This document shows positions 4,465-38,241 of a DNA stretch of 38,241 nt, in pieces (the first letter of the stretch is position 1; each line of letters begins with the position of its first letter). The notes beneath the pieces were generated by a model that was not told the origin of the DNA, made no database searches, and saw nothing but the letters and a program-made list of their open reading frames with translations. A program made the translations under genes and the position numbers. The DNA lies in the NCBI GenBank assembly GCA_032718475.1, contig JAUCBJ010000553.1:1-38241 (forward strand). The letters are read 5' to 3'. The stretch comes from Nemertoderma westbladi. Its lineage: Eukaryota; Animalia; Xenacoelomorpha.

Positions 4465-4681
4465 ACTGGATAAGGTTGAAGAAATTCGTCCAATCAAAAA
4501 GATTCGGCGAAACGATGCTGAGCGCCCTCTAGCGGCAGTTGAAGACGAGGAAGAAGAAGAAGACGATGCGGCTTTCACTTCCAAGAGGGCAAAGTCCTTA
4601 TCGACTATCGCTATCGATGTGACGGCGAGGCATTTATTTCTAGACATCGAGAACGTAGCGAACGTAGTGTTACTGAGTATG
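4465..4681 (+). CDS. SYMPK: Symplekin exon B
   Basis: atttag|A acceptor completes the CG|A codon; acidic linker then IDVTARHL...ENVANVVLLSM; donor ATG|gtgagt (phase 0). Confidence 0.92.
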
Positions 4682-6960: not shown

Positions 6961-7116
6961 TTACACCTACCAGAAAGGATTCCAGTCCACTTCCACTCCT
7001 CCTACACTCCCATAGCAGCTGCCGGTGGGGGAATGCAGATCAAACACGTAACTCGTCTCCTAGCAACGCAAATGACGGCCGCTGGGATCGGGCCGGGGAT
7101 CGAATTTGTAGCTAAA
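6961..7116 (+). CDS. SYMPK: Symplekin exon C (not in the ORF track)
   Basis: ttttacag| acceptor; LHLPERIPVHFHSSYTPIAAAGGGMQIKHVTRLLATQMTAAGIGPGIEFVAK; donor AAA|gttagt (phase 0). Confidence 0.93.
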
Positions 7117-7278
7117 GTTAGTCACATAGGCAGCCATTAGATTATCTAATTTGTACCTAAAGTTAGTCACATAGGCAGCCATTAGATTATCGGATTTGTA
7201 GCTAAAGTTAGTCACATAGGCAGCCATTAGATTATCGGATTTGTAGCTAAAGTTAGTCACATAGGCAGCCATTAGATT
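7099..7278 (+). repeat. Donor-spanning minisatellite 2: 45-bp unit x4
   Basis: ATCGRATTTGTAGCTAAA|GTTAGTCACATAGGCAGCCATTAGATT at 7099, 7144, 7189 and 7234. Confidence 0.96.
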
Positions 7279-7461: not shown

Positions 7462-7644
7462 CAAGAAGCGGACGCCATCGAGAAAAAGCGTAGGCGGCTG
7501 GAAGAAATGGAGCAGACAAAGACGGCTGCCATAGCAACGGTGCTGGGAGGCACCGTCGTCAAGGAGACAGCTGCTGTATCTTCCGGCTACACAATACCGC
7601 CGCCAGAGTTGGACGAAATCAATAAAATGATAACGCAACCTTCG
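7462..7644 (+). CDS. SYMPK: Symplekin exon D (poorly conserved linker)
   Basis: tttgcag| acceptor; open GC-richer frame QEADAIEKKRRRLEE...ITQPS; donor TCG|gtaaga; phase 0/0 fits both neighbours. Confidence 0.85.
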
Positions 7645-7730
7645 GTAAGATATGTCGTTGTCATAGCAACCTTCGGTAAGATATGTCGTTGTCATAGCAA
7701 CCTTCGGTAAGAATTGTCGTTGTCATAGCA
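7635..7730 (+). repeat. Donor-spanning minisatellite 3: 31-bp unit x3
   Basis: GCAACCTTCG|GTAAGATATGTCGTTGTCATA at 7635, 7666 and 7697. Confidence 0.95.
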
Positions 7731-8953: not shown

Positions 8954-9149
8954 ATTATTCACTAAACTGTTGCTAGAGGCGCCTATTATTACGGACCGCG
9001 CCCAGGATGTCCTGTGTAAATTCTGTCTGGACCCGGCGCATTATGAATCAGGTCTCCAGGCAACCGCATACATTGTGGAGATGCGGCCGGGACAAAGCCA
9101 ACAGTTCACAAGAATATTAGTGAGAATGAGTACAGTGGATAATGCAGAG
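8954..9149 (+). CDS. SYMPK: Symplekin exon G
   Basis: atttag|A acceptor; LFTKLLLEAPIIT...ILVRMSTVDNAE; donor GAG|gttggt (phase 0). Confidence 0.93.
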
Positions 9150-15100: not shown

Positions 15101-18100
15101 AGAGGTTGGTTAACAGAATGAGTACAGCGGATAATGCAGAGGTTGGTTAACAGACCCCCACACCCTAGTGAGAATGAGTACAGTGGATAATGCAGAGGTT
15201 GGTTAACAGAATGAGTACCGTGGATAATGCAGAGGTTGGTTAACAGAATGAGTACAGTGGATAATGCAGAGATTGGTTAACAGAATGAGTACAGTGGATA
15301 ATGCAGAGGTTGGTTAACAGAATGAGTACAGCGGATAATGCAGAGGTTGGTTAACAGACCCCCACACCCTAGTGAGAATGAGTACAGTGGATAATGCAGA
15401 GGTTGGTTAACAGAATGAGTACAGTGGATAATGCAGAGGTTGTTTAACAGAATGAGTACAGTGGATAATGCAGAGGTTGGTTAACAGAATGAGTACAGTG
15501 GATAATGCAGAGGTTGGTTAACAGAATGAGTACAGCGGATAATGCAGAGGTTGGTATACAGACCCCCACACCCTAGTGAGAATGAGTACAGTGGATAATG
15601 CAGAGGTTGGTTAACAGAATGAGTACAGTGGATAATGCAGAGGTTGGTTAACAGAATGAGTGCAGTGGATAATGCAGAGGTTGGTTAACAGAATGAGTAC
15701 AGCGGATAATGCAGAGGTTGGTTAACAGACCCCCACACCCTAGTGAGAATGAGTACAGTGGATAATGCAGAGGTTGGTTAACAGACCCCCACACCCTAGT
15801 GAGAATGAGTACAGTGGATAATGCAGAGGTTGGTTAACAGAATGAGTACAGTGGATAATGCAGAGGTTGGTTAACAGAATGAGTACAGTGGATAATGCAG
15901 AGGTTGGTTAACAGAATGAGTACAGTGGATAATGCAGAGGTTGGTTAACAGAATGAGTACAGCGGATAATGCAGAGGTTGGTATACAGACCCCCACACCC
16001 TAGTGAGAATGAGTACAGTGGATAATGCAGAGGTTGGTTAACAGACCCCCACACCCTAGTGAGAATGAGTACAGTGGATAATGCAGAGGTTGGTTAACAG
16101 ACCCCCACACCCTAGTGAGAATGAGTACAGTGGATAATGCAGAGGTTGGTTAACAGACCCCCACACCCTAGTGAGAATGAGTACAGTGGATAATACAGAG
16201 GTTGGTTAACAGAATGAGTACAGTGGATAATGCAGAGGTTGGTTAACAGACCCCCACACCCTAGTGAGAATGAGTACAGTGGATAATGCAGAGGTTGGTT
16301 AACAGACCCCCACACCCTAGTGAGAATGAGTACAGTGGATAATGCAGAGGTTGGTTAACAGACCCCCACACCCTAGTGAGAATGAGTACAGTGGATAATG
16401 CAGAGGTTGGTTAACAGAATGAGTACAGTGGATAATGCAGAGGTTGGTTAACAGAATGAGTGCAGTGGATAATGCAGAGGTTGGTTAACAGAATGAGTAC
16501 AGCGGATAATGCAGAGGTTGGTTAACAGACCCCCACACCCTAGTGAGAATGAGTACAGTGGATAATACAGAGGTTGGTTAACAGAATGAGTACAGTGGAT
16601 AATGCAGAGGTTGGTTAACAGAATGAGTACAGCGGATAATGCAGAGGTTGGTTAACAGAATGAGTACAGTGGATAATGCAGAGGTTGGTTAACAGAATGA
16701 GTACAGTGGATAATGCAGAGGTTGGTTAACAGAATGAGTACAGCGGATAATGCAGAGGTTGGTTAACAGACCCCCACACCCTAGTGAGAATGAGTACAAT
16801 GGATAATGCAGAGGTTGGTTAACAGAATGAGTACAGCGGATAATGCAGAGGTTGGTTAACAGACCCCCACACCCTAGTGAGAATGAGTACAGTGGATAAT
16901 GCAGAGGTTGGTTAACAGACCCCCACACCCTAGTGAGAATGAGTACAGTGGATAATGCAGAGGTTGGTTAACAGAATGAGTACAGTGGATAATGCAGAGG
17001 TTGGTTAACAGAATGAGTACAGTGGATAATGCAGAGGTTGGTTAACAGAATGAGTACAATGGATAATGCAGAGGTTGGTTAACAGAGCAGAGGTTGGTTA
17101 ACAGAATGAGTACAATGGATAATGCAGAGGTTGGTTAACAGACCCCCACACCCTATAGTGAGAATGAGTACAGTGGATAATGCAGAGGTTGGTTAACAGA
17201 ATGAGTACAGTGGATAATGCAGAGGTTGGTTAACAGAATGAGTACAGTGGATAATACGAGGTTGGTTAACAGACCCCCACACCCTATAGTGAGAATGAGT
17301 ACAGTGGATAATACAGAGGTTGGTTAACAGAATGAGTACAGTGGATCATGCAGAGGTTGGTTAACAGAATGAGTACAGTGGATAATACGAGGTTGGTTAA
17401 CAGACCCCCACACCCTATAGTGAGAATGAGTACAGTGGATAATGCAGAGGTTGGTTAACAGAATGAGTACAGTGGATAATGCAGAGGTTGGTTAACAGAC
17501 CCCCACACCCTAATGGGAATGAGTACAGTGGATAATGCAGAGGTTGGTTAACAGACCCCCACTCTAGTGAGAATGAGTACAGTGGATAATGCAGAGGTTG
17601 GTTAACAGAAAGAGTACAGTGGATAATGCAGAGGTTGGTTAACAGAATGAGTACAGTGGATAATGCAGAGGTTGGTTAACAGAATGAGTACAATGGATAA
17701 TGCAATGAGTACAATGGATAATGCAGAGGTTGGTTAACAGACCCCCACACCCTATAGTGAGAATGAGTACAGTGGATAATGCAGAGGTTGGTTAACAGAA
17801 TGAGTACAGTGGATAATGCAGAGGTTGGTTAACAGAATGAGTACAGTGGATAATGCAGAGGTTGGTTAACAGAATGAGTACAGTGGATAATGCAGAGGTT
17901 GGTTAACAGAATGAGTACAGTGGATAATGCAGAGGTTGGTTAACAGAATGAGTACAGTGGATAATGCAGAGGTTGGTTAACAGAACGAGTACAGTGAATA
18001 ATGCAGAGGTTGGTTAACAGAATGAGTACAGTGGATAATGCAGAGGTTGGTTAACAGAATGAATACAGTGGATAATGCAGAGGTTGGTTAACAGAATGAG

Positions 18101-21100
18101 TACAGTGGATAATGCAGAGGTTGGTTAACAAACCCCCACACCCTAGTGAGAATGAGTACAGTGGATAACGCAGAGGTTGGTTAACAGAATGAGTACAGTG
18201 GATAATGCAGAGGTTGGTTAACAGAATGAGTACAGTGGATAATGCAGAGGTTGGTTAACAAACCCCCACACCCTAGTGAGAATGAGTACAGTGGATAACG
18301 CAGAGGTTGGTTAACAGAATGAGTACAGTGGATAATGCAGAGGTTGGTTAACAGAATGAGTACAGTGGATAATGCAGAGGTTGGTTAACAGACCCCCACA
18401 CCCTATAGTGAGAATGAGTACAGTGGATAATGCAGAGGTTGGTTAACAGAATGAGTACAGTGGATAATGCAGAGGTTGGTTAACAGAATGAGTACAGTGG
18501 ATAATGCAGAGGTTGGTTAACAGAATGAGTACAGCGGATAATGCAGAGGTTGGTTAACAGACCCCCACACCCTAGTGAGAATGAGTACAATGGATAATGC
18601 AGAGGTTGGTTAACAGAATGAGTACAGCGGATAATGCAGAGGTTGGTTAACAGACCCCCACACCCTAGTGAGAATGAGTACTGTGGATAATGCAGAGGTT
18701 GGTTAACAGACCCCCACACCCTAGTGAGAATGAGTACAGTGGATAATGCAGTGGTTAACAGAATGAGTACAGTGGATAATGCAGAGGTTGGTTAACAGAA
18801 TGAGTACAATGGATAATGCAGAGGTTGGTTAACAGAATGAGTACAGTGGATAATGCAGAGGTTGGTTAACAGAATGAGTACAGTGGATAATGCAGAGGTT
18901 GGTTAACAGAATGAGTACAATGGATAATGCAGAGGTTGGTTAACAGACCCCCACACTCTAGTGAGAATGAGTACAGTGGATAACGCAGATGTTGGTTAAC
19001 AGACCCCCACACCCTATAGTGAGAATGAGTACAGTGGATAATGCAGAGGTTGGTTAACAGAATGAGTACAGTGGATAACGCAGAGGTTGGTTAACAGACC
19101 CCCACACCCTATAGTGAGAATGAGTACAGTGGATAATGCAGAGGTTGGTTAACAGAATGAGTACAGTGGATAATGCAGAGGTTGGTTAACAGACCCCCAC
19201 ACCCTAGTGAGAATTAGTACAGTGGATAATGCAGAGGTTGGTTAACAGAATGAGTACAGTGGATAATGCAGAGGTTGGTTAACAGAATGAGTACAGTGGA
19301 TAATACGAGGTTGGTTAACAGACCCCCACACCCTATAGTGAGAATGAGTACAGTGGATAATGCAGAGGTTGGTTAACAGAATGAGTACAGTGGATAATGC
19401 AGAGGTTGGTTAACAGACCCCCACACCCTAATGAGAATGAGTACAGTGGATAATGCAGAGGTTGGTTAACAGAACCCCACACCCTAGTGAGAATGAGTAC
19501 AGTGGATAATGCAGAGGTTGGTTAACAGAAAGAGTACAGTGGATAATGCAGAGGTTGGTTAACAGAATGAGTACAGTGGATAATGCGGAGGTTGGTTAAC
19601 AGAATGAGTACAATGGATAATGCAGAGGTTGGTTAACAGAACCCCACACCCTATAGTGAGAATGAGTACAGTGGATAATGCAGAGGTTGGTTAACAGAAT
19701 GAGTACAGTGGATAATGCAGAGGTTGGTTAACAGAATGAGTACAGTGGATAATGCAGAGGTTGGTTAACAGAATGAGTACAGTGGATAATGCAGAGGTTG
19801 GTTAACAGAATGAGTAGAGTGGATAATGCAGAGGTTGGTTAACAGAATGAGTACAGTGGATAATGCAGAGGTTGGTTAACAGAATGAGTACAGTGGATAA
19901 TGCAGAGGTTGGTTAACAGAATGAGTACAGTGGATAATGCAGAGGTTGGTTAACAGAATGAGTACAGTGGATAATGCAGAGGTTGGTTAACAGAATGAGT
20001 ACAGTGGATAATGCAGAGGTTGGTTAACAAACCCCCACACCCTAGTGAGAATGAGTACAGTGGATAACGCAGAGGTTGGTTAACAGAATGAGTACAGTGG
20101 ATAATGCAGAGGTTGGTTAACAGAATGAGTACAGTGGATAATGCAGAGGTTGGTTAACAAACCCCCACACCCTAGTGAGAATGAGTACAGTGGATAACGC
20201 AGAGGTTGGTTAACAGAATGAGTACAGTGGATAATGCAGAGGTTGGTTAACAGAATGAGTACAGTGGATAATGCAGAGGTTGGTTAACAGACCCCCACAC
20301 CCTATAGTGAGAATGAGTACAGTGGATAATGCAGAGGTTGGTTAACAGAATGAGTACAGCGGATAATGCAGAGGTTGGTTAACAGAATGAGTACAGTGGA
20401 TAATGCAGAGGTTGGTTAACAGAATGAGTACAGTGGATAATGCAGAGGTTGGTTAACAGAATGAGTACAGCGGATAATGCAGAGGTTGGTTAACAGACCC
20501 CCACACCCTAGTGAGAATGAGTACAATGGATAATGCAGAGGTTGGTTAACAGAATGAGTACAGCGGATAATGCAGAGGTTGGTTAACAGACCCCCACACC
20601 CTAGTGAGAATGAGTACAGTGGATAATGCAGAGGTTGGTTAACAGACCCCCACACCCTAGTGAGAATGAGTACAGTGGATAATGCAGAGGTTGGTTAACA
20701 GAATGAGTACAGTGGATAATGCAGAGGTTGGTTAACAGAATGAGTACAGTGGATAATGCAGAGGTTGGTTAACAGAATGAGTACAATGGATAATGCAGAG
20801 GTTGGTTAACAGAGCAGAGGTTGGTTAACAGAATGAGTACAATGGATAATGCAGAGGTTGGTTAACAGACCCCCACACCCTATAGTGAGAATGAGTACAG
20901 TGGATAATGCAGAGGTTGGTTAACAGAATGAGTACAGTGGATAATGCAGAGGTTGGTTAACAGAATGAGTACAGTGGATAATACGAGGTTGGTTAACAGA
21001 CCCCCACACCCTATAGTGAGAATGAGTACAGTGGATAATGCAGAGGTTGGTTAACAGAATGAGTACAGTGGATCATGCAGAGGTTGGTTAACAGAATGAG

Positions 21101-24100
21101 TACAGTGGATAATACGAGGTTGGTTAACAGACCCCCACACCCTATAGTGAGAATGAGTACAGTGGATAATGCAGAGGTTGGTTAACAGAATGAGTACAGT
21201 GGATAATGCAGAGGTTGGTTAACAGACCCCCACACCCTAATGGGAATGAGTACAGTGGATAATGCAGAGGTTGGTTAACAGACCCCCACTCTAGTGAGAA
21301 TGAGTACAGTGGATAATGCAGAGGTTGGTTAACAGAAAGAGTACAGTGGATAATGCAGAGGTTGGTTAACAGAATGAGTACAGTGGATAATGCAGAGGTT
21401 GGTTAACAGAATGAGTACAATGGATAATGCAATGAGTACAATGGATAATGCAGAGGTTGGTTAACAGACCCCCACACCCTATAGTGAGAATGAGTACAGT
21501 GGATAATGCAGAGGTTGGTTAACAGAATGAGTACAGTGGATAATGCAGAGGTTGGTTAACAGAATGAGTACAGTGGATAATGCAGAGGTTGGTTAACAGA
21601 ATGAGTACAGTGGATAATGCAGAGGTTGGTTAACAGAATGAGTACAGTGGATAATGCAGAGGTTGGTTAACAGAATGAGTACAGTGGATAATGCAGAGGT
21701 TGGTTAACAGAACGAGTACAGTGAATAATGCAGAGGTTGGTTAACAGAATGAGTACAGTGGATAATGCAGAGGTTGGTTAACAGAATGAATACAGTGGAT
21801 AATGCAGAGGTTGGTTAACAGAATGAGTACAGTGGATAATGCAGAGGTTGGTTAACAAACCCCCACACCCTAGAGAGAATGAGTACAGTGGATAACGCAG
21901 AGGTTGGTTAACAGAATGAGTACAGTGGATAATGCAGAGGTTGGTTAACAGAACGAGTACAGTGAATAATGCAGAGGTTGGTTAACAGAATGAGTACAGT
22001 GGATAATGCAGAGGTTGGTTAACAGAATGAGTACAGTGGATAATGCAGAGGTTGGTTAACAGACCCCCACACCCTATAGTGAGAATGAGTACAGTGGATA
22101 ATGCAGAGGTTGGTTAACAGAATGAGTACAGTGGATAATGCAGAGGTTGGTTAACAGAATGAGTACAGTGGATAATGCAGAGGTTGGTTAACAGAATGAG
22201 TACAGCGGATAATGCAGAGGTTGGTTAACAGACCCCCACACCCTAGTGAGAATGAGTACAATGGATAATGCAGAGGTTGGTTAACAGAATGAGTACAGCG
22301 GATAATGCAGAGGTTGGTTAACAGACCCCCACACCCTAGTGAGAATGAGTACAGTGGATAATGCAGAGGTTGGTTAACAGACCCCCACACCCTAGTGAGA
22401 ATGAGTACAGTGGATAATGCAGTGGTTAACAGAATGAGTACAGTGGATAATGCAGAGGTTGGTTAACAGAATGAGTACAATGGATAATGCAGAGGTTGGT
22501 TAACAGAATGAGTACAGTGGATAATGCAGAGGTTGGTTAACAGAATGAGTACAGTGGATAATGCAGAGGTTGGTTAACAGAATGAGTACAATGGATAATG
22601 CAGAGGTTGGTTAACAGACCCCCACACTCTAGTGAGAATGAGTACAGTGGATAACGCAGATGTTGGTTAACAGACCCCCACACCCTATAGTGAGAATGAG
22701 TACAGTGGATAATGCAGAGGTTGGTTAACAGAATGAGTACAGTGGATAACGCAGAGGTTGGTTAACAGACCCCCACACCCTATAGTGAGAATGAGTACAG
22801 TGGATAATGCAGAGGTTGGTTAACAGAATGAGTACAGTGGATAATGCAGAGGTTGGTTAACAGACCCCCACACCCTAGTGAGAATTAGTACAGTGGATAA
22901 TGCAGAGGTTGGTTAACAGAATGAGTACAGTGGATAATGCAGAGGTTGGTTAACAGAATGAGTACAGTGGATAATACGAGGTTGGTTAACAGACCCCCAC
23001 ACCCTATAGTGAGAATGAGTACAGTGGATAATGCAGAGGTTGGTTAACAGAATGAGTACAGTGGATAATGCAGAGGTTGGTTAACAGACCCCCACACCCT
23101 AATGAGAATGAGTACAGTGGATAATGCAGAGGTTGGTTAACAGAACCCCACACCCTAGTGAGAATGAGTACAGTGGATAATGCAGAGGTTGGTTAACAGA
23201 AAGAGTACAGTGGATAATGCAGAGGTTGGTTAACAGAATGAGTACAGTGGATAATGCGGAGGTTGGTTAACAGAATGAGTACAATGGATAATGCAGAGGT
23301 TGGTTAACAGAACCCCACACCCTATAGTGAGAATGAGTACAGTGGATAATGCAGAGGTTGGTTAACAGAATGAGTACAGTGGATAATGCAGAGGTTGGTT
23401 AACAGAATGAGTACAGTGGATAATGCAGAGGTTGGTTAACAGAATGAGTACAGTGGATAATGCAGAGGTTGGTTAACAGAATGAGTAGAGTGGATAATGC
23501 AGAGGTTGGTTAACAGAATGAGTACAGTGGATAATGCAGAGGTTGGTTAACAGAATGAGTACAGTGGATAATGCAGAGGTTGGTTAACAGAATGAGTACA
23601 GTGGATAATGCAGAGGTTGGTTAACAGAATGAGTACAGTGGATAATGCAGAGGTTGGTTAACAGAATGAGTACAGTGGATAATGCAGAGGTTGGTTAACA
23701 AACCCCCACACCCTAGTGAGAATGAGTACAGTGGATAACGCAGAGGTTGGTTAACAGAATGAGTACAGTGGATAATGCAGAGGTTGGTTAACAGAATGAG
23801 TACAGTGGATAATGCAGAGGTTGGTTAACAAACCCCCACACCCTAGTGAGAATGAGTACAGTGGATAACGCAGAGGTTGGTTAACAGAATGAGTACAGTG
23901 GATAATGCAGAGGTTGGTTAACAGAATGAGTACAGTGGATAATGCAGAGGTTGGTTAACAGACCCCCACACCCTATAGTGAGAATGAGTACAGTGGATAA
24001 TGCAGAGGTTGGTTAACAGAATGAGTACAGTGGATAATGCAGAGGTTGGTTAACAGAATGAGTACAGTGGATAATGCAGAGGTTGGTTAACAGAATGAGT

Positions 24101-27100
24101 ACAGTGGATAATGCAGAGGTTGGTTAACAGAATGAGTACAGCGGATAATGCAGAGGTTGGTTAACAGACCCCCACACCCTAGTGAGAATGAGTACAATGG
24201 ATAATGCAGAGGTTGGTTAACAGAATGAGTACAGCGGATAATGCAGAGGTTGGTTAACAGACCCCCACACCCTAGTGAGAATGAGTACAGTGGATAATGC
24301 AGAGGTTGGTTAACAGACCCCCACACCCTAGTGAGAATGAGTACAGTGGATAATGCAGAGGTTGGTTAACAGAATGAGTACAGTGGATAATGCAGAGGTT
24401 GGTTAACAGAATGAGTACAATGGATAATGCAGAGGTTGGTTAACAGAATGAGTACAGTGGATAATGCAGAGGTTGGTTAACAGAATGAGTACAGTGGATA
24501 ATGCAGAGGTTGGTTAACAGAATGAGTACAATGGATAATGCAGAGGTTGGTTAACAGACCCCCACACTCTAGTGAGAATGAGTACAGTGGATAACGCAGA
24601 GGTTGGTTAACTGACCCCCACACCCTATAGTGAGAATGAGTACAGTGGATAATGCAGAGGTTGGTTAACAGAATGAGTACAGTGGATAACGCAGAGGTTG
24701 GTTAACAGAATGAGTACAGTGGATAATGCAGAGGTTGGTTAACAGAATGAGTACAGTGGATAATGCAGAGGTTGGTTAACAGAATGAGTACAGTGGATAA
24801 CGCAGAGGTTGGTTAACAGAATGAGTACAGTGGATAATGCAGAGGTTGGTTAACAGAATGAGTACAATGGATAATGCAGAGGTTGGTTAACAGACCCCCA
24901 CACTCTAGTGAGAATGAGTACAGTGGATAACGCAGAGGTTGGTTAACAGACCCCCACACCCTATAGTGAGAATGAGTACAGTGGATAATGCAGAGGTTGG
25001 TTAACAGAATGAGTACAGTGGATAATGCAGAGGTTGGTTAACAGAATGAGTACAGTGGATAATGCAGAGGTTGGTTAACAGAATGAGTACAATGGATAAT
25101 GCAGAGGTTGGTTAACAGACCCCCACACTCTAGTGAGAATGAGTACAGTGGATAACGCAGAGGTTGGTTAACAGACCCCCACACCCTATAGTGAGAATGA
25201 GTACAGTGGATAATGCAGAGGTTGGTTAACAGAATGAGTACAGTGGATAACGCAGAGGTTGGTTAACAGAATGAGTACAGTGGATAATGCAGAGGTTGGT
25301 TAACAGAATGAGTACAGTGGATAATGCAGAGGTTGGTTAACAGAATGAGTACAGTGGATAACGCAGAGGTTGGTTAACAGAATGAGTACAGTGGATAATG
25401 CAGAGGTTGGTTAACAGAATGAGTACAATGGATAATGCAGAGGTTGGTTAACAGACCCCCACACCCTATAGTGAGAATGAGTACAGTGGATAATGCAGAG
25501 GTTGGTTAACAGAATGAGTACAGTGGATAACGCAGAGGTTGGTTAACAGAATGAGTACAGTGGATAATGCAGAGGTTGGTTAACAGAATGAGTACAGTGG
25601 ATAATGCAGAGGTTGGTTAACAGACCCCCACACCCTATAGTGAGAATGAGTACAGTGGATAATGCAGAGGTTGGTTAACAGAATGAGTACAGTGGATAAC
25701 GCAGAGGTTGGTTAACAGAATGAGTACAGTGGATAATGCAGAGGTTGGTTAACAGAATGAGTACAGTGGATAATGCAGAGGTTGGTTAACAGAATGAGTA
25801 CAGTGGATAACGCAGAGGTTGGTTAACAGAATGAGTACAGTGGATAATGCAGAGGTTGGTTAACAGAATGAGTACAATGGATAATGCAGAGGTTGGTTAA
25901 CCGACCCCCACACCCTATAGTGAGAATGAGTACAGTGGATAATGCAGAGGTTGGTTAACAGAATGAGTACAGTGGATAACGCAGAGGTTGGTTAACAGAC
26001 CCCCACACCCTATAGTGAGAATGAGTACAGTGGATAATGCAGAGGTTGGTTAACAGAATGAGTACAGTGGATAACGCAGAAGTTGGTTAACAGAATGAGT
26101 ACAGTGGATAATGCAGAGGTTGGTTAACAGAATGAGTACAGTGGATAATGCAGAGGTTGGTTAACAGAATGAGTACAGTGGATAACGCAGAGGTTGGTTA
26201 ACAGAATGAGTACAGTGGATAATGCAGAGGTTGGTTAACAGAATGAGTACAATGGATAATGCAGAGGTTGGTTAACAGACCCCCACACCCTATAGTGAGA
26301 ATGAGTACAGTGGATAATGCAGAGGTTGGTTAACAGAATGAGTACAGTGGATAATGCAGAGGTTGGTTAACAGACCCCCACACTCTAGTGAGAATGAGTA
26401 CAGTGGATAACGCAGAGGTTGGTTAACAGACCCCCACACCCTATAGTGAGAATGAGTACAGTGGATAATGCAGAGGTTGGTTAACAGAATGAGTACAGTG
26501 GATAACGCAGAGGTTGGTTAACAGAATGAGTACAGTGGATAATGCAGAGGTTGGTTAACAGAATGAGTACAGTGGATAATGCAGAGGTTGGTTAACAGAA
26601 TGAGTACAGTGGATAATGCAGAGGTTGGTTAACAGAATGAGTACAATGGATAATGCAGAGGTTGGTTAACAGAATGAGTACAATGGATAATGCAGAGGTT
26701 GGTTAACAGACCCCCACACCCTATAGTGAGAATGAGTACAGTGGATAATGCAGAGGTTGGTTAACAGAATGAGTACAGTGGATAATGCAGAGGTTGGTTA
26801 ACAGACCCCCACACCCTATTGAGAATGAGTACAGTGGATAATGCAGAGGTTGTTTAACAGAATGAGTACAGTGGATAACGCAGAGGTTGGTTAACAGACC
26901 CCCACACTCTAGTGAGAATGAGTACAGTGGATAACGCAGAGGTTGGTTAACAGAATGAGTACAGTGGATAATGCGAGGTTGGTTAACAGAATGAGTACAA
27001 TGGATAATGCAGAGGTTGGTTAACAGACCCCCACACCCTAGTGAGAATGAGTGCAGTGGATAATGCAGAGGTTGGTTAACAGAATGAGTACAGTGGATAT

Positions 27101-27484
27101 TGCAGAGGTTGGTTAACATACCCCCACACCCTAGTGAGAATGAGTACAGTGGATAACGCAGAGGTTGGTTAACAGAATGAGTACAGTGGATAATGCAGAG
27201 GTTGGTTAACAGAATGAGTACAATGGATAATGCAGAGGTTGGTTAACAGACCCCCACACCCTAGTGAGAATGAGTGCAGTGGATAATGCAGAGGTTGGTT
27301 AACAGAATGAGTACAGTGGATAATGCGAGGTTGGTTAACAGAATGAGTACAGTGGATAATGCAGAGGTTGGTTAACAGAATGAGTACAGTGGATAATGCA
27401 GAGGTTGGTTAACAGACACCCACACCCTAGTGAGAATGAGTACAGTGGATAATGCAGAGGTTGGTTAACAGACCCCCACACCCT
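9118..27484 (+). repeat. Donor-spanning satellite 4: 18.4 kb of interleaved 37-bp and 56/58-bp units (~400+ copies)
   Basis: Short unit AGAATGAGTACAGTGGATAATGCAGAG|GTTGGTTAAC; the long unit adds AGACCCCCACACCCT(AT)AGTG. The array starts inside exon G and ends ...CCCCACACCCT before unique intron sequence. Copy number is estimated from length. Confidence 0.98.
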
Positions 27485-27635
27485 GTTCTGTACCTTAAAA
27501 AGTTTTTAAAATGGAATTTTTATTTTATCAAGTAATGGGTGGGTATAATAATTTTCATAAAAAATAGAAGTAGTCCCAGGACAAAATATACGTTTTTTTG
27601 ATATTCTAAAAACTGATAGTGTGGCATTGTTGGCT

Positions 27636-28124: not shown

Positions 28125-28798
28125 TCCCTTACATACTTATATAGAGTAGTAGAGTGCTCCACACGAATCAGAATCAATAAAAAAAAGCCCCAATATAAAG
28201 AATTAGTAACTCACAAATGACCTTGTAAAATTCGAAAATTTAAAAAAATTTCTGCTGGGGACCAAATTTTGAGGTGGCACCCACATTGAAAAGTTGAAAT
28301 CTAATTGCAACGCAGTTTTTTGCAAAAGATGCGCCATTAAATTTGACTAATTCTCGTAAAAAATTGGGCTGGTATAATGTGGTTGCATAGATAAAGCAAT
28401 TAAAAACTAGGAAGGGGCCGATTCGCCCCCCCCCCCCCCCCACAGTGCGAATAGGGATAATGATGAGGCATTCTGATTGGTTGATGGAGGAATTATGTTC
28501 CTCGTGTTGCCTCTAACTTACTCGGTGCGGTGGTCTAACTGATGGATAAGCTAAAGGGAAGAGGGCCGAGTGTCTAAACATCCACAGATCGGCCGCAACC
28601 TAATTAAATATTAAACATTTGTAAAATAAATAAAAGTAATAAAATAAAGTATTTGTTGTTGCATTTTAACCGGGGTTTTTCGGTAATATCGTTTTTTTAA
28701 TAATAATATTTCAATATTAGTGGTGCTAAGTAAGTCCTTTGGACCATTAGGGTTATAATGAGTCGTGTAATAATGTTTAACTAATGGTTTTATCGTAG

Positions 28799-28937
28799 AT
28801 TCGGGATGCGGCAGTAACCATGGCCCATCAGCTGCACACCAATCCCGCTTGTAAGTCGCACGTAACCCAGTTAGCGTTGGAATACATGGGTTACATCGCA
28901 CTGCCGAAACCTCCCTCACACTTATTCCAAGAAATAG
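28799..28937 (+). CDS. SYMPK: Symplekin exon H (not in the ORF track)
   Basis: atcgtag| acceptor; IRDAAVTMAHQLHTNPACKSHVTQLALEYMGYIALPKPPSHLFQEI fills the expected gap (VR..ALNYL..PNPPS.LF); donor G|gttagt (phase 1). Confidence 0.88.
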
Positions 28938-29331
28938 GTTAGTTTATTATGTCGAAATATATCATTGTACTTAATCCTTTAAAATGTTGAATTCTGCAGA
29001 GGTTCTCCAAATACTTTCATTATATGAGAACTAGAAGCAGCCTCAACCACACCATATACGAAATATTTACTAATATTTGGATATTATTAATATGCAACTT
29101 TTATCCCTCGTGGTGTGTGGTGTGTACCGGTATATAGTGTTTCCGTTCTTTGTACTTATTAAATTCCCATAGAGAATATTCGATTATACATTAGTTAACT
29201 AATCGCTACTATTCATCGCACACAATTTTATATAGAATTAAATTAATTCTACCATTAGATACCAAATGTGTCAATATGGGGTTTAATTTAAGATGGATGC
29301 GTACTAAAACATTTTCATCATTTTTTTATAG

Positions 29332-29642
29332 GTGAATCTTTACCCGAGGATGCAGTATGGACTGAGGAAATTGCCAGACGATTCCTCTATTTCTACCTCA
29401 GCCTTATCGCCCTGGACAATAAACTCATCCATAGACTGGCAGCGGTGTTTGTAGAAGCAGTGCCCGACGTTAAGCGAACCATTCTGAGGACTCTAGACAC
29501 ACCAATGAGACTAATGAGTCTCAACTCACCTGAATTACTCACACTCGTAGAAGAGTGCCCGTCTGGAGCTGAAACACTGATCACAAGAATGCTACATATA
29601 CTCACAGAGAAAGCCCTGCCCCCTCCAGCACTTGTCACTAGG
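29332..29642 (+). CDS. SYMPK: Symplekin exon I
   Basis: ttttatag|GT acceptor; WTEE...KLIHRLAAVF...NSPELLTLVEECPSGAETLITRMLHILTEKALPPPALVTR; donor AGG|gtacgt (phase 0). Confidence 0.93.
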
Positions 29643-30810
29643 GTACGTATACTCACAGAGAAAGCCCTGCCCCCTCCAGCACTGGTCACTAGGGTACGTA
29701 TACTCACAGAGAAAGCCCTGCCCCCTCCAGCACTGGTCACTAGGGTACGTATACTCACAGAGAAAGCCCTGCCACCTCCAGCACTGGTCACTAGGGTACG
29801 TATATTCACAGAGAAAGCCCTGCCACCTCCAGCACTGGTCACTAGGGTACGTATACTCACAGAGAAAGCCCTGCCACCTCCAGCACTGGTCACTAGGGTA
29901 CGTATATTCACAGAGAAAGCCCTGCCACCTCCAGCACTGGTCACTAGGGTACGTATACTCACAGAGAAAGCCCTGCCACCTCCAGCACTGGTCACTAGGG
30001 TTCGTATATTCACAGAGAAAGCCCTGCCACCTCCAGCACTGGTCACTAGGGTACGTATACTCACAGAGAAAGCCCTGCCACCTCCAGCACTGGTCACTAG
30101 GGTTCGTATATTCACAGAGAAAGCCCTGCCACCTCCAGCACTGGTCACTAGGGTACGTATACTCACAGAGAAAGCCCTCCCACCTCCAGCACTGGTCACT
30201 AGGGTACGTATACTCACAGAGAAAGCCCTGCCACCTCCAGCACTGGTCACTAGGGTACGTATACTCACAGAGAAAGCCCTGCCACCTCCAGCACTGGTCA
30301 CTAGGGTTCGTATATTCACAGAGAAAGCCCTGCCACCTCCAGCACTGGTCACTAGGGTACGTATACTCACAGAGAAAGCCCTCCCACCTCCAGCACTGGT
30401 CACTAGGGTACGTATACTCACAGAGAAAGCCCTGCCCCCTCCAACACTGGTCACTAGGGTACGTATACTCACAGAGAAAGCCCTGCCACCTCCAGCACTG
30501 GTCACTAGGGTTCGTATATTCACAGAGAAAGCCCTGCCACCTCCAGCACTGGTCACTAGGGTACGTATACTCACAGAGAAAGCCCTCCCACCTCCAGCAC
30601 TGGTCACTAGGGTACGTATACTCACAGAGAAAGCCCTGCCCCCTCCAGCACTGGTCACTAGGGTACATATACTCACAGAGAAGCCCTGCCCCCTCCAGCA
30701 CTGGTCACTAGGGTACATATACTCACAGAGAAGCCCTGCCCCCTCCGCCTCCAGCCCCTGCCCCCTCCAGCACTGGTCACTAGGGTACGTATATACTCAT
30801 AGAGAAAGCC
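29598..30810 (+). repeat. Donor-spanning minisatellite 5: 51-bp in-frame unit, ~23 copies
   Basis: ATACTCACAGAGAAAGCCCTGCCMCCTCCAGCACTGGTCACTAGG|GTACGT encodes ILTEKALPPPALVTRVR. There are 21 full-length copies to 30668, followed by indel-bearing copies. Confidence 0.97.
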
Positions 30811-30853
30811 ATAGAAGACAACAATAATATATTGTGATTGTTTTTGATTGCAG

Positions 30854-31115
30854 GTTCGGGATTTGTACCACAAAAGAGTGTCTGACGTTCGGTTCCTCAT
30901 TCCGGTACTGACAGGTTTACAGAAGAGTGAGATTATTGCCACCCTCCCCAAACTCATTAAACAGAACCCTAACGTTGTGAAGGAAGTGTTTAATAGGTTG
31001 CTAGGTATCGGGTATGGCGAACAGGGTAGTAAAACCCCGATCACACCAATCGAGCTCCTTGTAGCCTTACACGAAATAGATTCTCTAAAGAGTGACATAA
31101 AGGCGATAATCAAAG
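30854..31115 (+). CDS. SYMPK: Symplekin exon J (C-terminal domain)
   Basis: ttgcag| acceptor; [19 protein letters not shown]...[19 protein letters not shown]...ELLVALH; donor G|gtaaag (phase 1). Confidence 0.95.
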
Positions 31116-31175
31116 GTAAAGTTCACTTTGATTCTTTATCAGGATCTCACCAAAGGCAAAAACATTAGGGTTGAA

Positions 31176-32461: not shown

Positions 32462-32697
32462 CAACTAGTTTGTGCTTCATGGAGCGTGCGATATTTACCC
32501 AAGAAGTATTGGCAACCGTTATAAGTAAACTTGTCGACGTTTCCCCTATACCAACTCTGCTCATGCGAACTGTCATACAAACACTCACTCTATATCCCAG
32601 GCTGCTGTCCTTCGTCATGAGTACCTTGAATCGACTCATCTCTAAGGAGGTCTGGACGCAAACAAAACTCTGGGAGGGCTTTATTAAATGCTGCGAG
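32462..32697 (+). CDS. SYMPK: Symplekin exon K
   Basis: atttcag|CA acceptor; ATSLCFMER...[18 protein letters not shown]...[16 protein letters not shown]; donor GAG|gtacgt (phase 0). Confidence 0.95.
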
Positions 32698-33526
32698 GTA
32701 CGTTTTATTGGGAGGGCTTTATTAAATGCTGCGAGGTACGTTTTATTTGGAGGGCTTTATTAATTGCTGCGAGGTACGTTTCTTGGGAGGGCTTTATTAA
32801 ATGCTGCGAGGTACGTTTTATTGGAAGGTCTTTATTAATTGCTGCGAGGTACGTTTTATTGGGATGGCTTTATTAAATGCTGCGAGGTACGTTTATTGGG
32901 AGGGCTTTATTAAATGCTGCGAGGTACGTTTTATTGGGAGGGCTTTATTAAATGCTGCGAGGTACGTTTATTTGGAGGGCTTTATTAAAGGCTGCGAGTT
33001 ACGTTTTATTGGGAGGGCTTTATTAAATGCTGCGAAGTACGTTTTATTGGGAGGGCTTTATTAAATGCTGCGAGGTACGTTTTATTGGTAGGGCTTTATT
33101 AAATGCTGCGAGGTACGTTTATTGGGAGGGCTTTATTAAATGCTGCGAGGTACGTTTTATTGCGAGGGCTTTATTAAATGCTGCGAAGTACGTTTTATTG
33201 GGAGGGCTTTATTAAATGCTGCGAGGTACGTTTATTGGGAGGGCTTTATTAAATGCTGCGAGGTACGTTTTATTGCGAGGGCTTTATTAAATGCTGCGAG
33301 GTACGTTTTATTGGGTGGGCTTTATTAAATGCTGCGAGGTACGTTTTATTGGGAGGGCTTTATTAGTTGCTGCGTGGTACGTTTTATTGGGAGGGCTTTA
33401 TTAAATGCAGCGAAGTACGTTTATTGGGAGGGCTTTATTAATTGCTGCGAGGTTCGTTTTATTGGGAGGGTCTTTATTAAATGCTGCGAGGTACGTTTTC
33501 TTGGGAGGGCTTTATTAATTGCTGCG
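32671..33526 (+). repeat. Donor-spanning minisatellite 6: 37/38-bp unit, ~22-23 copies
   Basis: TGGGAGGGCTTTATTAAATGCTGCGAG|GTACGTTT(T)AT is the last 27 nt of exon K plus the intron start. Confidence 0.97.
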
Positions 33527-33617
33527 CACTATTGTTGGCGGGTTGGCGAGGGGTACTATTTGGTTTAAACATACCACGTAACTTACGTGAATCTAACATC
33601 GTATTTTATATCGGCAG

Positions 33618-33746
33618 AGAACGCAGCCCCAATCGCACGCCGTGTTGATGCGGTTACCCGCGGAGCAACTCGTGGAGGCGATGCAGACCTGCCCCAAGTT
33701 ACAGGACCCACTACAACGTCATTATGAGTCACTGCCCCGCCCCCAG
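33618..33746 (+). CDS. SYMPK: Symplekin exon L (last in window; not in the ORF track)
   Basis: ggcag| acceptor; RTQPQSHAVLMRLPAEQLVEAMQTCPKLQDPLQRHYESLPRPQ (cf. RTKPQS...LP..QL...CP.L..PL); probable donor CAG|gtgggt. Confidence 0.9.
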
Positions 33747-33782: not shown

Positions 33783-36700
33783 CCAATGTCGATTAGTGTA
33801 CCAATGTAGCCAACGCAGTGTACCAATGTCGATCAGTGTACCAATGTAGATCAGTGTACGAATGTTAATTAGTATACCAATGTCGATCAGTGTACCAATG
33901 TCGATCAGTGTACCAATGTAGATCAGTGTACCAATGTCGATCAGTGTACCAATGTAGATCAGTGCACCAATGTCGATCAGTGTACCAATGTCGATCAGTG
34001 TACCAATGTAGATCAGTGTACGAATGTTAATTAGTATACCAATGTCGATCAGTGTACCAATGTAGATCAGTGTACCAATGTCGATCAGTGTACCAATGTA
34101 GATCAGTGTACGAATGTTAATTAGTATACCAATGTCGATCAGTGTACCAATGTCGATCAGTGTACCAATGTAGATCAGTGTACCAATGTCGATCAGTGTA
34201 CCAATGTAGATCAGTGTACCAATGTCGATCAGTGTACCAATGTAGATCAGTGTACCAATGTCGATCAGTGTACCAATGTAGATCAGTGTACCAATGTCGA
34301 TCAGTGTACCAATGTAGATCAGTGTACCAATGTCGATCAGTGTACCAATGTAGATCAGTGTACCAATGTAGATCAGTGTACCAATGTCGATCAGTGTGCC
34401 AATGTAGATCAATGTACCAATGTAGATCAGTGTACCAATGTAGATCAGTGTAACAATGTTGATCAGTGTACCAATGTAGATCAGTGTACCAATGTAGATC
34501 AGTATACCAATGTAGATCAGTGTACCAATGTCGATCAATGTACCAATGTAGATCAGTGTACCAATGTCGATCAATGTACCAATGTAGATCAGTGTACCAA
34601 TATAGATCAGTGTACCAATGTAGATCAGTGTACCAATGTCGATCAGTGTACCAATGTCGATCAGTGTACCAATATAGATCAGTGTACCATTGTCGATCAG
34701 TGTACCAATGTAGATCACTGTACCAATGTCGATCAGTGTACCAATGTAGATCACTGTACCAATGTCGATCAGTGTACGAATGTTAATTAGTATACCAATG
34801 TAGATCAGTGTACCAATGTAGATCAGTGCACCATTGTCGATCAGTGTACCAATGTCGATCAGTGTACCAATGTAGATCTGTATACCAATGTCGATCAGTG
34901 TACCAATGTAGATCAGTGTACGAATGTTAATTAGTATACCAATGTAGATCAGTGTACCAATGGTAATTAGTATACCAATGTCGATCAGTGTACCAATGTA
35001 GATCAGTGTACCAATTGTAATCAATGTACCAATGCAGATCAGTGTACCAATGTAGATCAGTGTACCAATGGTGATCAATGTACCAATGTAGATCAATGCA
35101 CCAATGTAGATCAGTGTACCAATGTAGATCAGTGTACCAATGGTGATCAATGTACCAATAGATCAGTATACCAATGGTGATCAATGTACCAATGTATATC
35201 AATGTACCAATGTAAATCAGTGTACCAATGTAGATCAATTTACCAATGTCGATCAGTGTACCAATGTAGATCAGTGTACCAATGGTGATCAATGTACCAA
35301 TAGATCAGTATACCAATGTTGATCAATGTACCAATGTGGATCAATGTACCAATGTAAATCAGTGTACCAATGTAGATCAATTTACCAATGTCGATCAGTG
35401 TACCAATGGTGATCAATGTACCAATGTAGATCAGTGTACCAATGGTGATCAATGTACCAATGTAGATCAGTGTACCAATGTCGATCAATGTACCAATGGT
35501 GATCAATGTACCAATAGAACAGTATACCAATGGTGATCAATGTACCAATGTAGATCAATGTACCAATGTAAATCAGTGTACCAATGTAGATCAATTTACC
35601 AATGTCGATCAGTGTACCAATGTAGATCAGTGTACCAATGTAGATCAGTGTACCAATGTCGATCAATGTACCAATGGTGATCAATGTACCAATAGAACAG
35701 TATACCAATGGTGATCAATGTACCAATGTAGATCAATGTACCAATGTAAATTAGTGTACCAATGTAGATCAATTTACCAATGTCGATCAGTGTACCAATG
35801 TAGATCAGTGTACCAATGTAGATCAGTGTACCAATGGTGATCAATGTACCAATAGATCAGTATTCCAATGGTTATCAATGTACCAATGTAGATCAATGTA
35901 CCAATGTAAATTAGTGTACCAATGTAGATCAATTTACCAATGTCGATCAGTGTACCAATGTAGATCAGTGTACCAATAGATCAATATACCATTGTAGATC
36001 AGTGTACCAATGTAGATCAGTGTACCAATGTAGATCAATGTACCAATGTAGATCAATGTACCAATGTAGATCAGTGTACCAATGTAGATCAGTGTACCAA
36101 TGTAGATCAGTGTACCAATGTCGATCAGTGTACCAATGTAGATCAGTGTACCAATGTAGATCAGTGTACCAATGTAGATCAGTGCACCAATGTAGATCAG
36201 TATACCAATGTAGATCAGTGTACCAATGTAGATCAGTATACCAATGTAGATCAGTGTACCAATGTTAATTAGTATACCAATGTCGATCAGTGTACCAATG
36301 TAGATCAGTGTACCAATGTAGATCAATGTAACAATGTAGATCAATGTACCAATGTCGATCAGTGTACCAATGTAGATCAGTGTACGAATGTTAATTAGTA
36401 TACCAATGTCAATCAGTGTACCAATGTAGATCAGTGTACCAATTGTGATCAATGTACCAATGTAGATCAGTGTACCAATGGTGATCAATGTACCAATGTA
36501 GATCAATGCACCAATGTAGATCAGTGTACCAATGTAGATCAGTGTACCAATGGTGATCAATATACCAATAGATCAGTATACCAATGGTGATCAATGTACC
36601 AATGTATATCAATGTACCAATGTAGATCAGTGTACCAATGGTGATCAATGTACCAATAGATCAGTATTCCAATGGTGATCAATGTACCAATGTAGATCAA

Positions 36701-38241
36701 TGTACCAATGTAAATCAGTGTACCAATGTAGATCAATTTACCAATGTCGACCAGTGTACCAATGGTGATCAATGTACCAATGTAGATCAGTGTACCAATG
36801 TCGATCAATGTACCAATGTTGATCAATGTACCAATAGATCAGTATACCAATGGTGATCAATGTACCAATGTAGATCAATGTACCAATGTAAATCAGTATA
36901 CCAATGTAGATCAATTTACCAATGTCGATCAGTGTACCAATGTAGATCAGTGTACCAATGGTGATCAATGTACCAATAGATTAGTATACCAATGGTGATC
37001 AATGTACCAATGTTGATCAATGTACCAATGTAAATCAGTGTACCAATGTAGATCAATTTACCAATGCCGATCAGTGTACCAATGGTGATCAATGTACCAT
37101 TGTAGATCAGTGTACCAATGTAGATTAGTGTACGAATGTTAATTAGTATACCAATGTCGATCAGTGTACCAATGTAGATCAGTGTACCAATGTAGATCAG
37201 TGTACCAATGTAGATCAGTGTACCAATGGTGATCAATGTACCAATGTAGATCAGTGTACCAATGTAGATCAATGCACCAATGTAGATCAGTGTACCAATG
37301 TCGATCAATGTACCAATGTAGATCAATATACCATTGTAGATCAGTGTACCAATGTAGATCAGTGTACCAATGTAGATCAGTGTACCAATGTCGATTAATG
37401 TACCAATGTAGATCAGTGTACGAATGTTAATTAGTATACCAATGACGATCAGTTTACCAATGTAGATCAGTGTACCAATGTAGATCAGTGTACCAATGTA
37501 GATCAGTATACCAATGGTGATCAATGTACCAATGTAGATCAGTGTACCAATGTCGATCAATGCACCAATGTAGATCAGTGTACCAATGTAGATCAATATA
37601 CAATTGTAGATCAGTGTACCAGTGTAGATCAGTGTACCAATGTATATCAATGTACCAATGTAGATCAGTGTACCAATGGTGATCAATGTACCAATAGATC
37701 AGTATACCAATGGTGATCAATGTACCAATGTAGATCAATGTACCAATGTAAATCAGTGTACCAATGTAGATCAATTTACCAATGTCGATCAGTGTACCAA
37801 TGGTGATCAATGTACCAATGTAGATCAGTGTACCAATGTCGATCAATGTACCAATGTTGATCAATGTACCAATAGATCAGTATACCAATGTCGATCAATG
37901 TACCAATGTAGATCAGTGTACCAATGTAGATCAGTGTACCAATGTAGATCAGTGTACCAATGTGGATCAGTGTATCAATGTAGATCAGTGTACCAATGTC
38001 GATCAATGTACCAATGTAGATCAGTGTACCAATGGTGATCAGTGTACCAATGTCGATCAATGTACCAATTTAGATCAATATACCAATGTAGATCAGTGTA
38101 CCAATGTAGATCAGTGTACCAATGTAGATCAGTGTACCAATGTAGATCAGTGTACCAATGTAGATCAGGGTACCAATGTAGATCAGTGTACCAATGTCGA
38201 TCAATGTACCAATGTAGATCAGTGTACCAATGTAGATCAGT
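33783..38241. repeat. 18-bp minisatellite (CCAATGTAGATCAGTGTA)n, >4.4 kb, runs off the window
   Basis: Continuous 18-bp periodicity with recurrent variants (GTCGAT, GGTGAT, GTTAATT) and 16-bp deletion units. It starts ~36 nt after the exon L donor. Confidence 0.97.

What the first reader, a model, noticed from the sequence alone, without database searches (positions are those of the whole stretch)
29598..30810. In-frame, stop-free donor array could give symplekin isoforms with 0-20 extra 17-aa repeats
Seen: unlike the other five arrays (frameshifting, or with in-frame stops such as the TAG in the 45-bp unit), this unit is 51 bp and open. Copies 1-21 all end in a phase-0 AGG|GT compatible with exon J. 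Inference: alternative donor choice would insert (VRILTEKALPPPALVTR)n just before the C-terminal domain and escape NMD, giving a splice-tunable repeat length. It is also the best natural test of the first-donor rule, because mis-spliced products would survive.
Basis: partly seen in the sequence, partly recalled or inferred. Interest (0 to 1): 0.72.

Follow-up and report, generated by a model that had tools for sequence, protein, structure and literature searches.

The report
In-frame splice-donor minisatellite in symplekin
A 51-base piece covering the end of one symplekin exon and its splice signal is repeated 23 times in an unidentified animal genome, leaving 20 extra in-frame splice signals that are predicted to stay unused, as in repeats of this kind already known from human and lancelet genes.

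Summary
A 51-bp tandem array (29593-30746, 22.7 copies, 96% matches) starts inside a symplekin exon. It reiterates the exon end plus donor 23 times. Twenty extra donors sit at exact 51-bp steps, in frame and stop-free. The last two are out of frame. None of the five other donor arrays in this gene offers an open in-frame donor.

The open frame needs no selection. The unit length is a multiple of 3, and 46 of its 51 bases come from the exon. A second frame is open too.

This is a known kind: the amphioxus "mirage" minisatellites and the human F7, IFI6, CBS, LMNB2 and PDGFA boundary VNTRs. This scan has noted the same kind before on other DNA, including in-frame cases.

All 120 homologues examined have a single copy at this junction. 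In a model of a homologue the junction lies inside a helix of the C-terminal HEAT repeats.

No RNA run was listed, so donor use is untested. My reading is that the first donor is used and the isoform ladder is unlikely. New member of a known kind; interest is low to moderate.

The parts
28799..28937 (+). Symplekin exon H (upstream neighbour). It ends TAG|GTTAGT, and its last base plus the first two of exon I make a Gly codon.
   Evidence: Sequence read; open frame.
29332..29642 (+). Symplekin exon I (311 nt), preceded by ...tttttatag. It ends ...ALVTR with a complete AGG codon, followed by donor 1 (AGG|GTACGT at 29642|29643). Its last 51 bases (29592-29642) are copy 1 of the array.
   Evidence: tblastn of 4 homologues. 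Human symplekin 6v4x_J residues 751-847, E 1.7e-35.
29643..30662 (+). Array copies 2-21: twenty exact 51-bp units. Each is open in the exon's frame and each ends in AGG|GT (in-frame pseudo-donors 2-21).
   Evidence: There are 5 variant sites. Identity is highest at lag 4 (98.65%), which indicates a 204-bp higher-order repeat.
30663..30784 (+). Degenerate copies 22 (50 bp, one base lost) and 23 (72 bp, internal insertion). Their donors at 30712 and 30784 are out of frame.
30785..30853 (+). The 69-nt intron tail. It holds a partial, diverged 24th copy (to about 30810), then unique sequence, a T-rich tract and the acceptor ...gattgcag.
30854..31115 (+). Symplekin exon J. It starts in phase 0 with VRDLYHKR and ends AAG|GTAAAG. 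Pfam Symplekin_C begins at its residue 11.
   Evidence: (6v4x_J residues 848-936, E 4.2e-31).

Best explanation
This is a 'mirage'-type minisatellite: a 51-bp unit spanning the exon I/intron boundary of symplekin is repeated head to tail 23 times at the start of the intron, and the first donor (29642|29643) is predicted to be the one used, so the 20 extra in-frame donors likely stay silent or nearly so.

Shown:
- the array and its register;
- the frame of every donor;
- the single-copy state in homologues.

Inferred:
- The array arose by tandem duplication and then grew by slippage or unequal exchange. Support: it has a 4-unit higher-order pattern, and its edge copies are the most diverged.
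- The open frame is a by-product of a unit length divisible by 3 and a unit made up mostly of exon sequence.
- The spliceosome takes the most upstream of a row of like donors, either by 5'-to-3' scanning or by exon definition from the upstream acceptor, as shown for human F7.
- The whole array is therefore removed as part of a 1211-nt intron.
For: Anatomy.

Only the first donor restores the conserved protein. 120 of 120 homologues read ...LVxR|V[RK][DE]LY[HQ]KR with one copy. Human symplekin is contiguous at 847|848. All 4 of the homologues used in tblastn run from the exon I end straight into exon J.

In an AlphaFold model of the Priapulus homologue the junction (360|361) lies inside helix 355-367. 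Local mean pLDDT is 86 and 79. [quoted passage not shown] Inserts there would therefore likely be harmful.

The five other donor arrays of the same gene can only give frameshifted or stopped products from downstream donors. A conserved gene that tolerates them implies strong first-donor choice in this animal.

Precedent:
- F7: only the first of 5-9 identical donors is used, even though pseudo-sites 5 and 6 give no premature stop (PMC1557585, abstract, introduction and discussion).
- Amphioxus mirages do not disturb splicing (PMC3087553; PMC3902484).

There is no sign of protein-level selection on the copies. Three of 5 variant sites are synonymous, against 31% expected (p = 0.17).

No donor array sits at this intron in the 20 related metagenome loci, so the array is young and lineage-specific.
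Against: No transcript evidence of any kind could be obtained.

Sixteen of the 21 in-frame donors share the same 9-mer and the same 46-nt upstream context. Only position marks out the first.

Of the five human genes listed by Borensztajn et al., two (6-16 and CBS) do use two pseudo-sites besides the authentic donor.

The scanning evidence comes from mammalian cells. The ancestral intron here was short: 69 nt remain behind donor 23. If this animal pairs splice sites across short introns, acceptor-proximal donors could compete.

Three authentic donors of this gene begin GTT, so the GTTCGT variants are probably not disabled.
Confidence: 0.7

Rival explanations
1. Leaky first-donor choice. Most mRNA uses donor 1, but the next one or two donors (29693, 29744) are used at a low constitutive level. 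This would give symplekin with +17 or +34 residues, as a by-product without a dedicated function.
For: [quoted passage not shown] Donors 2 and 3 are identical to donor 1 in their 9-mer. The products would be in frame and stop-free.
Against: F7 (37-bp unit), LMNB2 (100 bp) and PDGF (81 bp) use only the authentic site. Amphioxus mirages give no aberrant mRNAs. The insertion would split a conserved helix.
Confidence: 0.2
2. One reading: regulated or copy-number-dependent choice among many of the 21 donors gives a functional ladder of symplekin isoforms with 0-20 extra 17-residue units.
For: All 20 extra donors are in frame and open, uniquely among the six arrays. Three of 5 variant sites are synonymous, but this is not significant.
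Against: No homologue among 120 has any insert here. The site is inside a helix of the HEAT-repeat region that binds CPSF73/100. No documented case uses more than the first three donors. The open frame is expected from the unit's make-up. The array is absent from 20 related loci.
Confidence: 0.04
3. The repeats are constitutively coding. The real exon runs through the array to the last in-frame donor (30662), and the protein carries 20 extra units.
For: 394 residues of uninterrupted read-through.
Against: The last in-frame donor is the weakened GTACAT, and the copies behind it are already frameshifted. The exon would be 1331 nt long. Homologues have one copy. There is no selection signal.
Confidence: 0.03
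4. Assembly artefact. The array exists, but its copy number or order is mis-assembled, or it is collapsed or expanded relative to the living genome.
For: Near-identical 51-bp units are hard to assemble. Ebner et al. found a mirage aberrantly assembled in the amphioxus draft genome (legend of Additional file 4).
Against: The copies carry an ordered pattern of 5 variant sites with a 4-unit period, which random mis-joining would not give. Six arrays of different units sit at six donors of one gene.
Confidence: 0.03

Closest known systems
Human F7 intron 7 37-bp VNTR (Borensztajn et al. 2006, PMC1557585; read: abstract, introduction, discussion)
   Same: The first unit spans the exon/intron boundary, so the authentic donor is followed by identical pseudo-donors. 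Some pseudo-sites (the 5th and 6th) would give no premature stop and are still unused.
   Different: F7 has 5-9 copies of 37 bp, with only 4 exon bases per unit. Here there are 23 copies of 51 bp with 46 exon bases per unit, so every one of 20 donors is in frame. Splicing was tested for F7 and not here.
Amphioxus 'mirage' minisatellites (Adh3, globins BflGb6/BflGb9, troponin C, PGBD5). Read: Ebner et al. 2010, PMC3087553, passages; Pavelitz et al. 2013, PMC3902484, passage. Canestro et al. 2002 is seen only as cited and is not held.
   Same: Tandem duplication of exon-intron boundaries in an invertebrate-grade genome. There are several per gene, units are 10-160 bp, cluster edges are left out of homogenisation, and regular splicing is reported to be undisturbed.
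   Different: This window is not from a Branchiostoma species represented in the protein database; the best identity to any symplekin is 74%. Here only donor sides are hit (6 of 6). One array reaches 18 kb.
Human interferon-inducible 6-16 (IFI6) intron 2 minisatellite and CBS intron 13 31-bp VNTR (as described in PMC1557585; Turri et al. 1995 is not held)
   Same: My recollection, from no call, is that the 6-16 unit is 12 nt and thus in frame.
   Different: [quoted passage not shown] Whether any is used here is unknown.
Human LMNB2 (100-bp unit) and PDGF intron 4 (81-bp unit) boundary minisatellites (as described in PMC1557585)
   Same: The exon/intron junction is reiterated 10-18 times, and only the authentic donor is used.
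   Different: The units are longer. Their frame status was not looked up.
Internal tandem repeats at exon-intron boundaries of human segmental-duplication genes (De Grassi & Ciccarelli 2009, PMC2812944; abstract and passages)
   Same: Tandem repeats at exon-intron boundaries that can change splicing patterns and lengthen proteins.
   Different: Those are differences between paralogues, with transcript support. Here it is a single conserved housekeeping gene with no transcript data.

Membership tests
Exon-intron boundary minisatellite ('mirage' / 5' pseudo-site VNTR) | Head-to-tail tandem array with a minisatellite-sized unit | tested here: met
   Period 51, 22.7 copies, 96% matches. 20 exact 51-bp steps.
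Exon-intron boundary minisatellite ('mirage' / 5' pseudo-site VNTR) | The first unit spans the exon/intron boundary, so the authentic donor is reiterated downstream | tested here: met
   Copy 1 is the last 51 bases of exon I. There are 23 CACTAGG|GT sites. The exon end is fixed by homology.
Exon-intron boundary minisatellite ('mirage' / 5' pseudo-site VNTR) | The extra copies are intronic: the mature mRNA and protein hold one copy | tested here: inconclusive
   120 of 120 homologues hold one copy, but no transcript of this animal could be examined.
Exon-intron boundary minisatellite ('mirage' / 5' pseudo-site VNTR) | Length instability or polymorphism, concerted evolution within the cluster, diverged edges | tested here: inconclusive
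   Only one haplotype is available. A higher-order 4-unit pattern and diverged edge copies (1, 22, 23) fit the feature. Polymorphism itself cannot be tested here.
Minisatellite that provides used alternative donors (human 6-16 / CBS type) | Pseudo-donors functional in sequence, with in-frame products | tested here: met
   Sixteen of 21 in-frame donors share the authentic 9-mer. All 20 extra ones are open.
Minisatellite that provides used alternative donors (human 6-16 / CBS type) | Transcripts that use pseudo-donors | not testable with these tools
   No RNA run was listed. No same-species protein is in the databases.
Symplekin (Pta1) scaffold of the pre-mRNA 3'-end cleavage complex | Symplekin_C (PF12295) domain and similarity to solved human symplekin | tested here: met
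   PF12295: E 5.2e-21 for exon J and 4e-32 for the next exon. 6v4x_J: E 1.7e-35 and 4.2e-31. 1169 database proteins with E <= 0.001, and the named ones among the best 120 are mostly called symplekin.

The most novel reading that the evidence does not exclude
The spliceosome of this animal uses several of the 20 extra in-frame donors. Symplekin, the scaffold of the mRNA 3'-end cleavage complex, would then be made as a ladder of isoforms carrying 1-20 extra 12-residue helices in its CPSF73/CPSF100-binding HEAT repeats. Because the array is a minisatellite, the ladder would differ between individuals. That would be heritable, splice-read protein-length variation in a core housekeeping factor.
Probability: 0.06. 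Interest if true: 0.65.

Novelty: new member of a known kind. Interest (0 to 1): 0.28.

Why it matters
Taken alone, this is one more exon-boundary minisatellite.

Its value is as a clean natural substrate for the question of how a spliceosome chooses among identical 5' splice sites outside mammals. It offers twenty donors with the same 9-mer or near it, the same upstream 46 nt, the same acceptor, and products that nonsense-mediated decay would not hide. One RT-PCR would tell first-donor scanning from proximity to the acceptor.

The gene as a whole makes a case for a genome-wide survey in this species. Six donor arrays and no acceptor arrays, with 388 donor copies in one intron, suggest one of two things. 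Either there is a donor-specific birth process, or there is a strong filter that lets only 'ignored' downstream donors survive.

Tried and rejected
RNA evidence:
- The look-up of sequencing runs, kind rna, on 28790-31140: no RNA holder listed and none of any kind listed.
- No whole genome is held for the window.
- No earlier notes exist on this genome.

Same-species transcripts through protein databases:
- Exon J with 'longer' lengths gave a best identity of 74%.
- Exon I plus one unit with 'near' lengths gave 4 hits of 61-74% identity.
- So no product of this species is on record there.

Metagenome scan with exon J: 20 loci, none of the same species (best 86% over 51 residues, or 96% over 24). 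None has a donor array at the homologous intron.

Selection test on the copies: 3 synonymous of 5 variant sites, p = 0.17, with no power.

Taxon placement from summed tblastn scores of 120 symplekins: no clear nearest group, 46-55% identity throughout. I leave the animal unnamed.

Papers not held: Turri et al. 1995 and Canestro et al. 2002. What I say of them comes from papers that cite them.

Literature searches: searches gave nothing closer than the papers named. One search (pseudo-sites / minisatellite / in-frame / VNTR) returned only PMC1557585.

Considered and dropped:
- Folding the read-through ORF without an alignment, because perfect repeats fold misleadingly.
- Folding a one-insert isoform, because it needs a joined sequence, which I did not make.

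Full report
WHAT IS THERE

The window carries, on the + strand, most of a metazoan symplekin gene.
- Exon J (30854-31115) matches 1169 database proteins at E <= 0.001. The named ones among the best 120 are mostly called symplekin, at 66-74% identity.
- Exon J and the next exon hit Pfam Symplekin_C (E 5.2e-21 and 4e-32).
- Exons I and J match solved human symplekin 6v4x_J (E 1.7e-35 and 4.2e-31).
- No database protein is close enough to name the animal.

Tandem Repeats Finder reports an array at 29593-30746 with period 51, 22.7 copies and 96% matches. A script located 23 CACTAGG|GT sites.
- The first site is the end of exon I (29642).
- Twenty more follow at exact 51-bp steps, up to 30662.
- Copy 22 has lost one base (50 bp). 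Copy 23 holds an internal insertion (72 bp).
- A diverged partial copy and 40-odd unique bases then lead to the acceptor at 30853.
- Copy 1 is exonic. The unit therefore consists of the last 46 exon bases plus the first 5 intron bases.

THE FRAME CLAIM

Exon I ends on a complete codon and exon J starts in phase 0. Human symplekin residues 847|848 align to the two sides.

Each of the 20 extra units reads VRILTEKALPPPALVTR or a one-residue variant, without a stop. Read-through from the exon end stays open for 394 residues.

Of the 21 in-frame donors, 16 are AGG|GTACGT, 4 are GTTCGT and 1 (the last) is GTACAT. GTT is not disabling in this gene: the authentic donors of three other exons begin GTT.

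The five other donor arrays of the gene offer no open in-frame donor (array C recomputed after I corrected its exon end):

| Array | Unit (bp) | Donor motifs | Extra donors in frame | In frame and open |
|---|---|---|---|---|
| A | 28/37 | 45 | 14 | 0 |
| B | 45 | 4 | 3 | 0 |
| C | 31 | 3 | 0 | 0 |
| D | 37/56 | 388 | 133 | 0 |
| F | 38 | 17 | 4 | 0 |

IS THE OPEN FRAME MEANINGFUL?

I think not, for four reasons.
- Two of the six arrays (45 and 51 bp) have a period divisible by 3, which is the chance expectation.
- A random 17-codon frame is stop-free with probability 0.44. Here 46 of 51 bases are exon sequence kept in its own frame.
- A second forward frame of the unit is open as well.
- Copies 2-21 differ at only five sites, 3 synonymous and 2 not. 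Against 31% synonymous expected, p = 0.17, so the test has no power either way.

The variants are arranged with a period of four units: identity at lag 4 is 98.65%, against 96.5-97.4% at lags 1-3. The edge copies (1, 22, 23) are the most diverged. This is the pattern Ebner et al. describe for mirage clusters evolving by unequal exchange.

WHAT THE PROTEIN SAYS

In 120 of 120 homologues retrieved, the junction reads ...HILT[DE]K..PS..LV.R|V[RK][DE]LY[HQ]KR with a single copy. It is one of the best-conserved stretches of the protein.

I folded the Priapulus homologue P0029 with a 30-sequence alignment. Overall confidence is modest (mean pLDDT 64.7, pTM 0.51). The blocks around the junction score 86 and 79.

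The junction (360|361) lies inside helix 355-367, which follows helix 337-348 and a six-residue loop. One inserted unit would therefore add a chimeric 12-residue helix (ALVTRVRILTEK) and a PPP loop in the middle of the helical repeats.

[quoted passage not shown] I infer, and have not shown, that inserts there would more likely harm than tune the protein.

WHAT IS KNOWN

Earlier notes of this scan led me to two bodies of work, which I then read.

Borensztajn et al. 2006 (PMC1557585; abstract, introduction and discussion) describe minisatellites whose first unit spans an exon-intron boundary in several human genes:
- F7: only the most upstream of 5-9 identical donors is used. The pseudo-sites are functional when the upstream ones are destroyed. 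Pseudo-sites 5 and 6 would not give a premature stop and are still unused.
- CBS: two pseudo-sites are used.
- LMNB2 and PDGF: only the authentic site is used.

Ebner et al. 2010 (PMC3087553, passages) and Pavelitz et al. 2013 (PMC3902484, passage) describe the same kind of repeat in amphioxus genes under the name 'mirages'. They report that it does not disturb splicing.

De Grassi and Ciccarelli 2009 (PMC2812944, abstract and passages) show that tandem repeats at exon-intron boundaries can change splicing in young human paralogues.

The present array meets the structural criteria of this class. It is a new member, not a new kind. The scan has noted the kind on other DNA: 11 findings in at least 8 genomes hold the search words, and one search lists in-frame 51-bp and 39-bp cases.

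HOW IT MOST LIKELY WORKS

Shown: the anatomy above.

Inferred:
- A 51-bp segment across the donor was duplicated in tandem and then amplified by slippage or unequal exchange.
- The array is transcribed as the first 1.14 kb of a 1211-nt intron. The ancestral intron was probably about 70-120 nt.
- The spliceosome pairs the most upstream donor with the acceptor at 30853.
- The conserved one-copy protein results.

A further argument comes from the gene itself. Five other introns carry 3 to 388 copies of their own donor, and use of any copy would frameshift or stop the protein. A conserved, apparently intact gene can bear this only if downstream copies are efficiently ignored. The same machinery sees the 51-bp array.

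I put 0.70 on 'first donor, essentially alone', 0.20 on low-level use of donors 2-3 as in 6-16 and CBS, and a few per cent each on a functional ladder, on constitutively coding repeats and on assembly error.

WHAT SPEAKS AGAINST MY READING

- There is no RNA evidence at all.
- Nothing but position distinguishes donor 1 from 15 others.
- The scanning rule was established in mammalian cells.
- The intron tail behind the last donor is only 69 nt. In an animal that defines short introns across the intron, the acceptor-proximal donors could compete. Those are out of frame (donors 22, 23) or weakened (donors 21, 22), which may itself be the trace of such a pressure, or may be mere edge decay.

NOT DONE, AND WHY

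- No sequencing run was listed.
- No genome is held for the window.
- No same-species protein or contig was found.
- Two key older papers are not held.
- I built no joined isoform sequence.

The decisive experiment is a single RT-PCR from exon I to exon J.

Noticed in passing
window 4652-6811, 7099-7278, 7635-7730, 9123-27485, 29593-30746, 32671-33526: Six introns of this one gene begin with a tandem array that reiterates their own exon end plus donor: 45, 4, 3, 388, 23 and 17 donor motifs. None of the array rows covers an exon start as far as I placed them. Six donors against no acceptors has a one-sided chance of 1/64 by my arithmetic. This suggests either a donor-specific origin or that only 'ignored' downstream donors survive.
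   Followed up: partly
window 9123-27485: The array behind the exon that ends GCAGAG|GTTGGT spans about 18 kb. It mixes 37-bp and 56-bp units in higher-order blocks of 93-431 bp and holds 388 copies of the donor motif. That is nearly half of the window.
   Followed up: partly
window 33783-38241: An 18-bp array (CCAATGTAGATCAGTGTA, 248.8 copies, 85% matches) starts 37 nt behind the donor CAG|GTGGGT at 33746 and runs off the window end. It does not contain the exon end, so it is intronic satellite and not a boundary repeat.
   Followed up: partly
window 1-2974: A 475-bp unit repeated 6.3 times at 99% identity, AT-rich (GC about 0.30), upstream of the first symplekin exon seen in the window. Its nature was not examined.
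   Followed up: no
window 29592-30784: Each 51-bp unit also carries a pyrimidine-rich CAG (CC[A/C]CCTCCAG, 22 occurrences) 36 nt behind the start of the preceding donor. On paper the array therefore offers donor-acceptor pairs 87, 138... nt apart that could splice within the array. The 14-nt pieces between acceptor and next donor would shift the frame.
   Followed up: no
L018 5298-5483: In a metagenome contig that encodes another organism's symplekin, a 35-bp unit repeated 5.3 times (90% matches) reiterates an exon end plus donor (CACCAG|GTCAGT). It lies at the exon homologous to window 33617-33746. This is a second, independent boundary minisatellite in the same gene family, at a different intron.
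   Followed up: partly
L009 1491-1565, L010 3680-3754, L012 3803-3877: Three related loci carry a 17-bp x 4.4 array inside the intron homologous to the one studied here, but away from the donor.
   Followed up: no
window 29643-29663 and 30854-30874: The intron and array start (GTACGT ATA CTC ACA GAG AAA = VRILTEK) and the exon J start (GTTCGG GAT TTG TAC CAC AAA = VRDLYHK) read alike. As a result, protein alignments of exon I run 7-11 residues into copy 2. This is probably chance, but it can mislead gene predictors.
   Followed up: no
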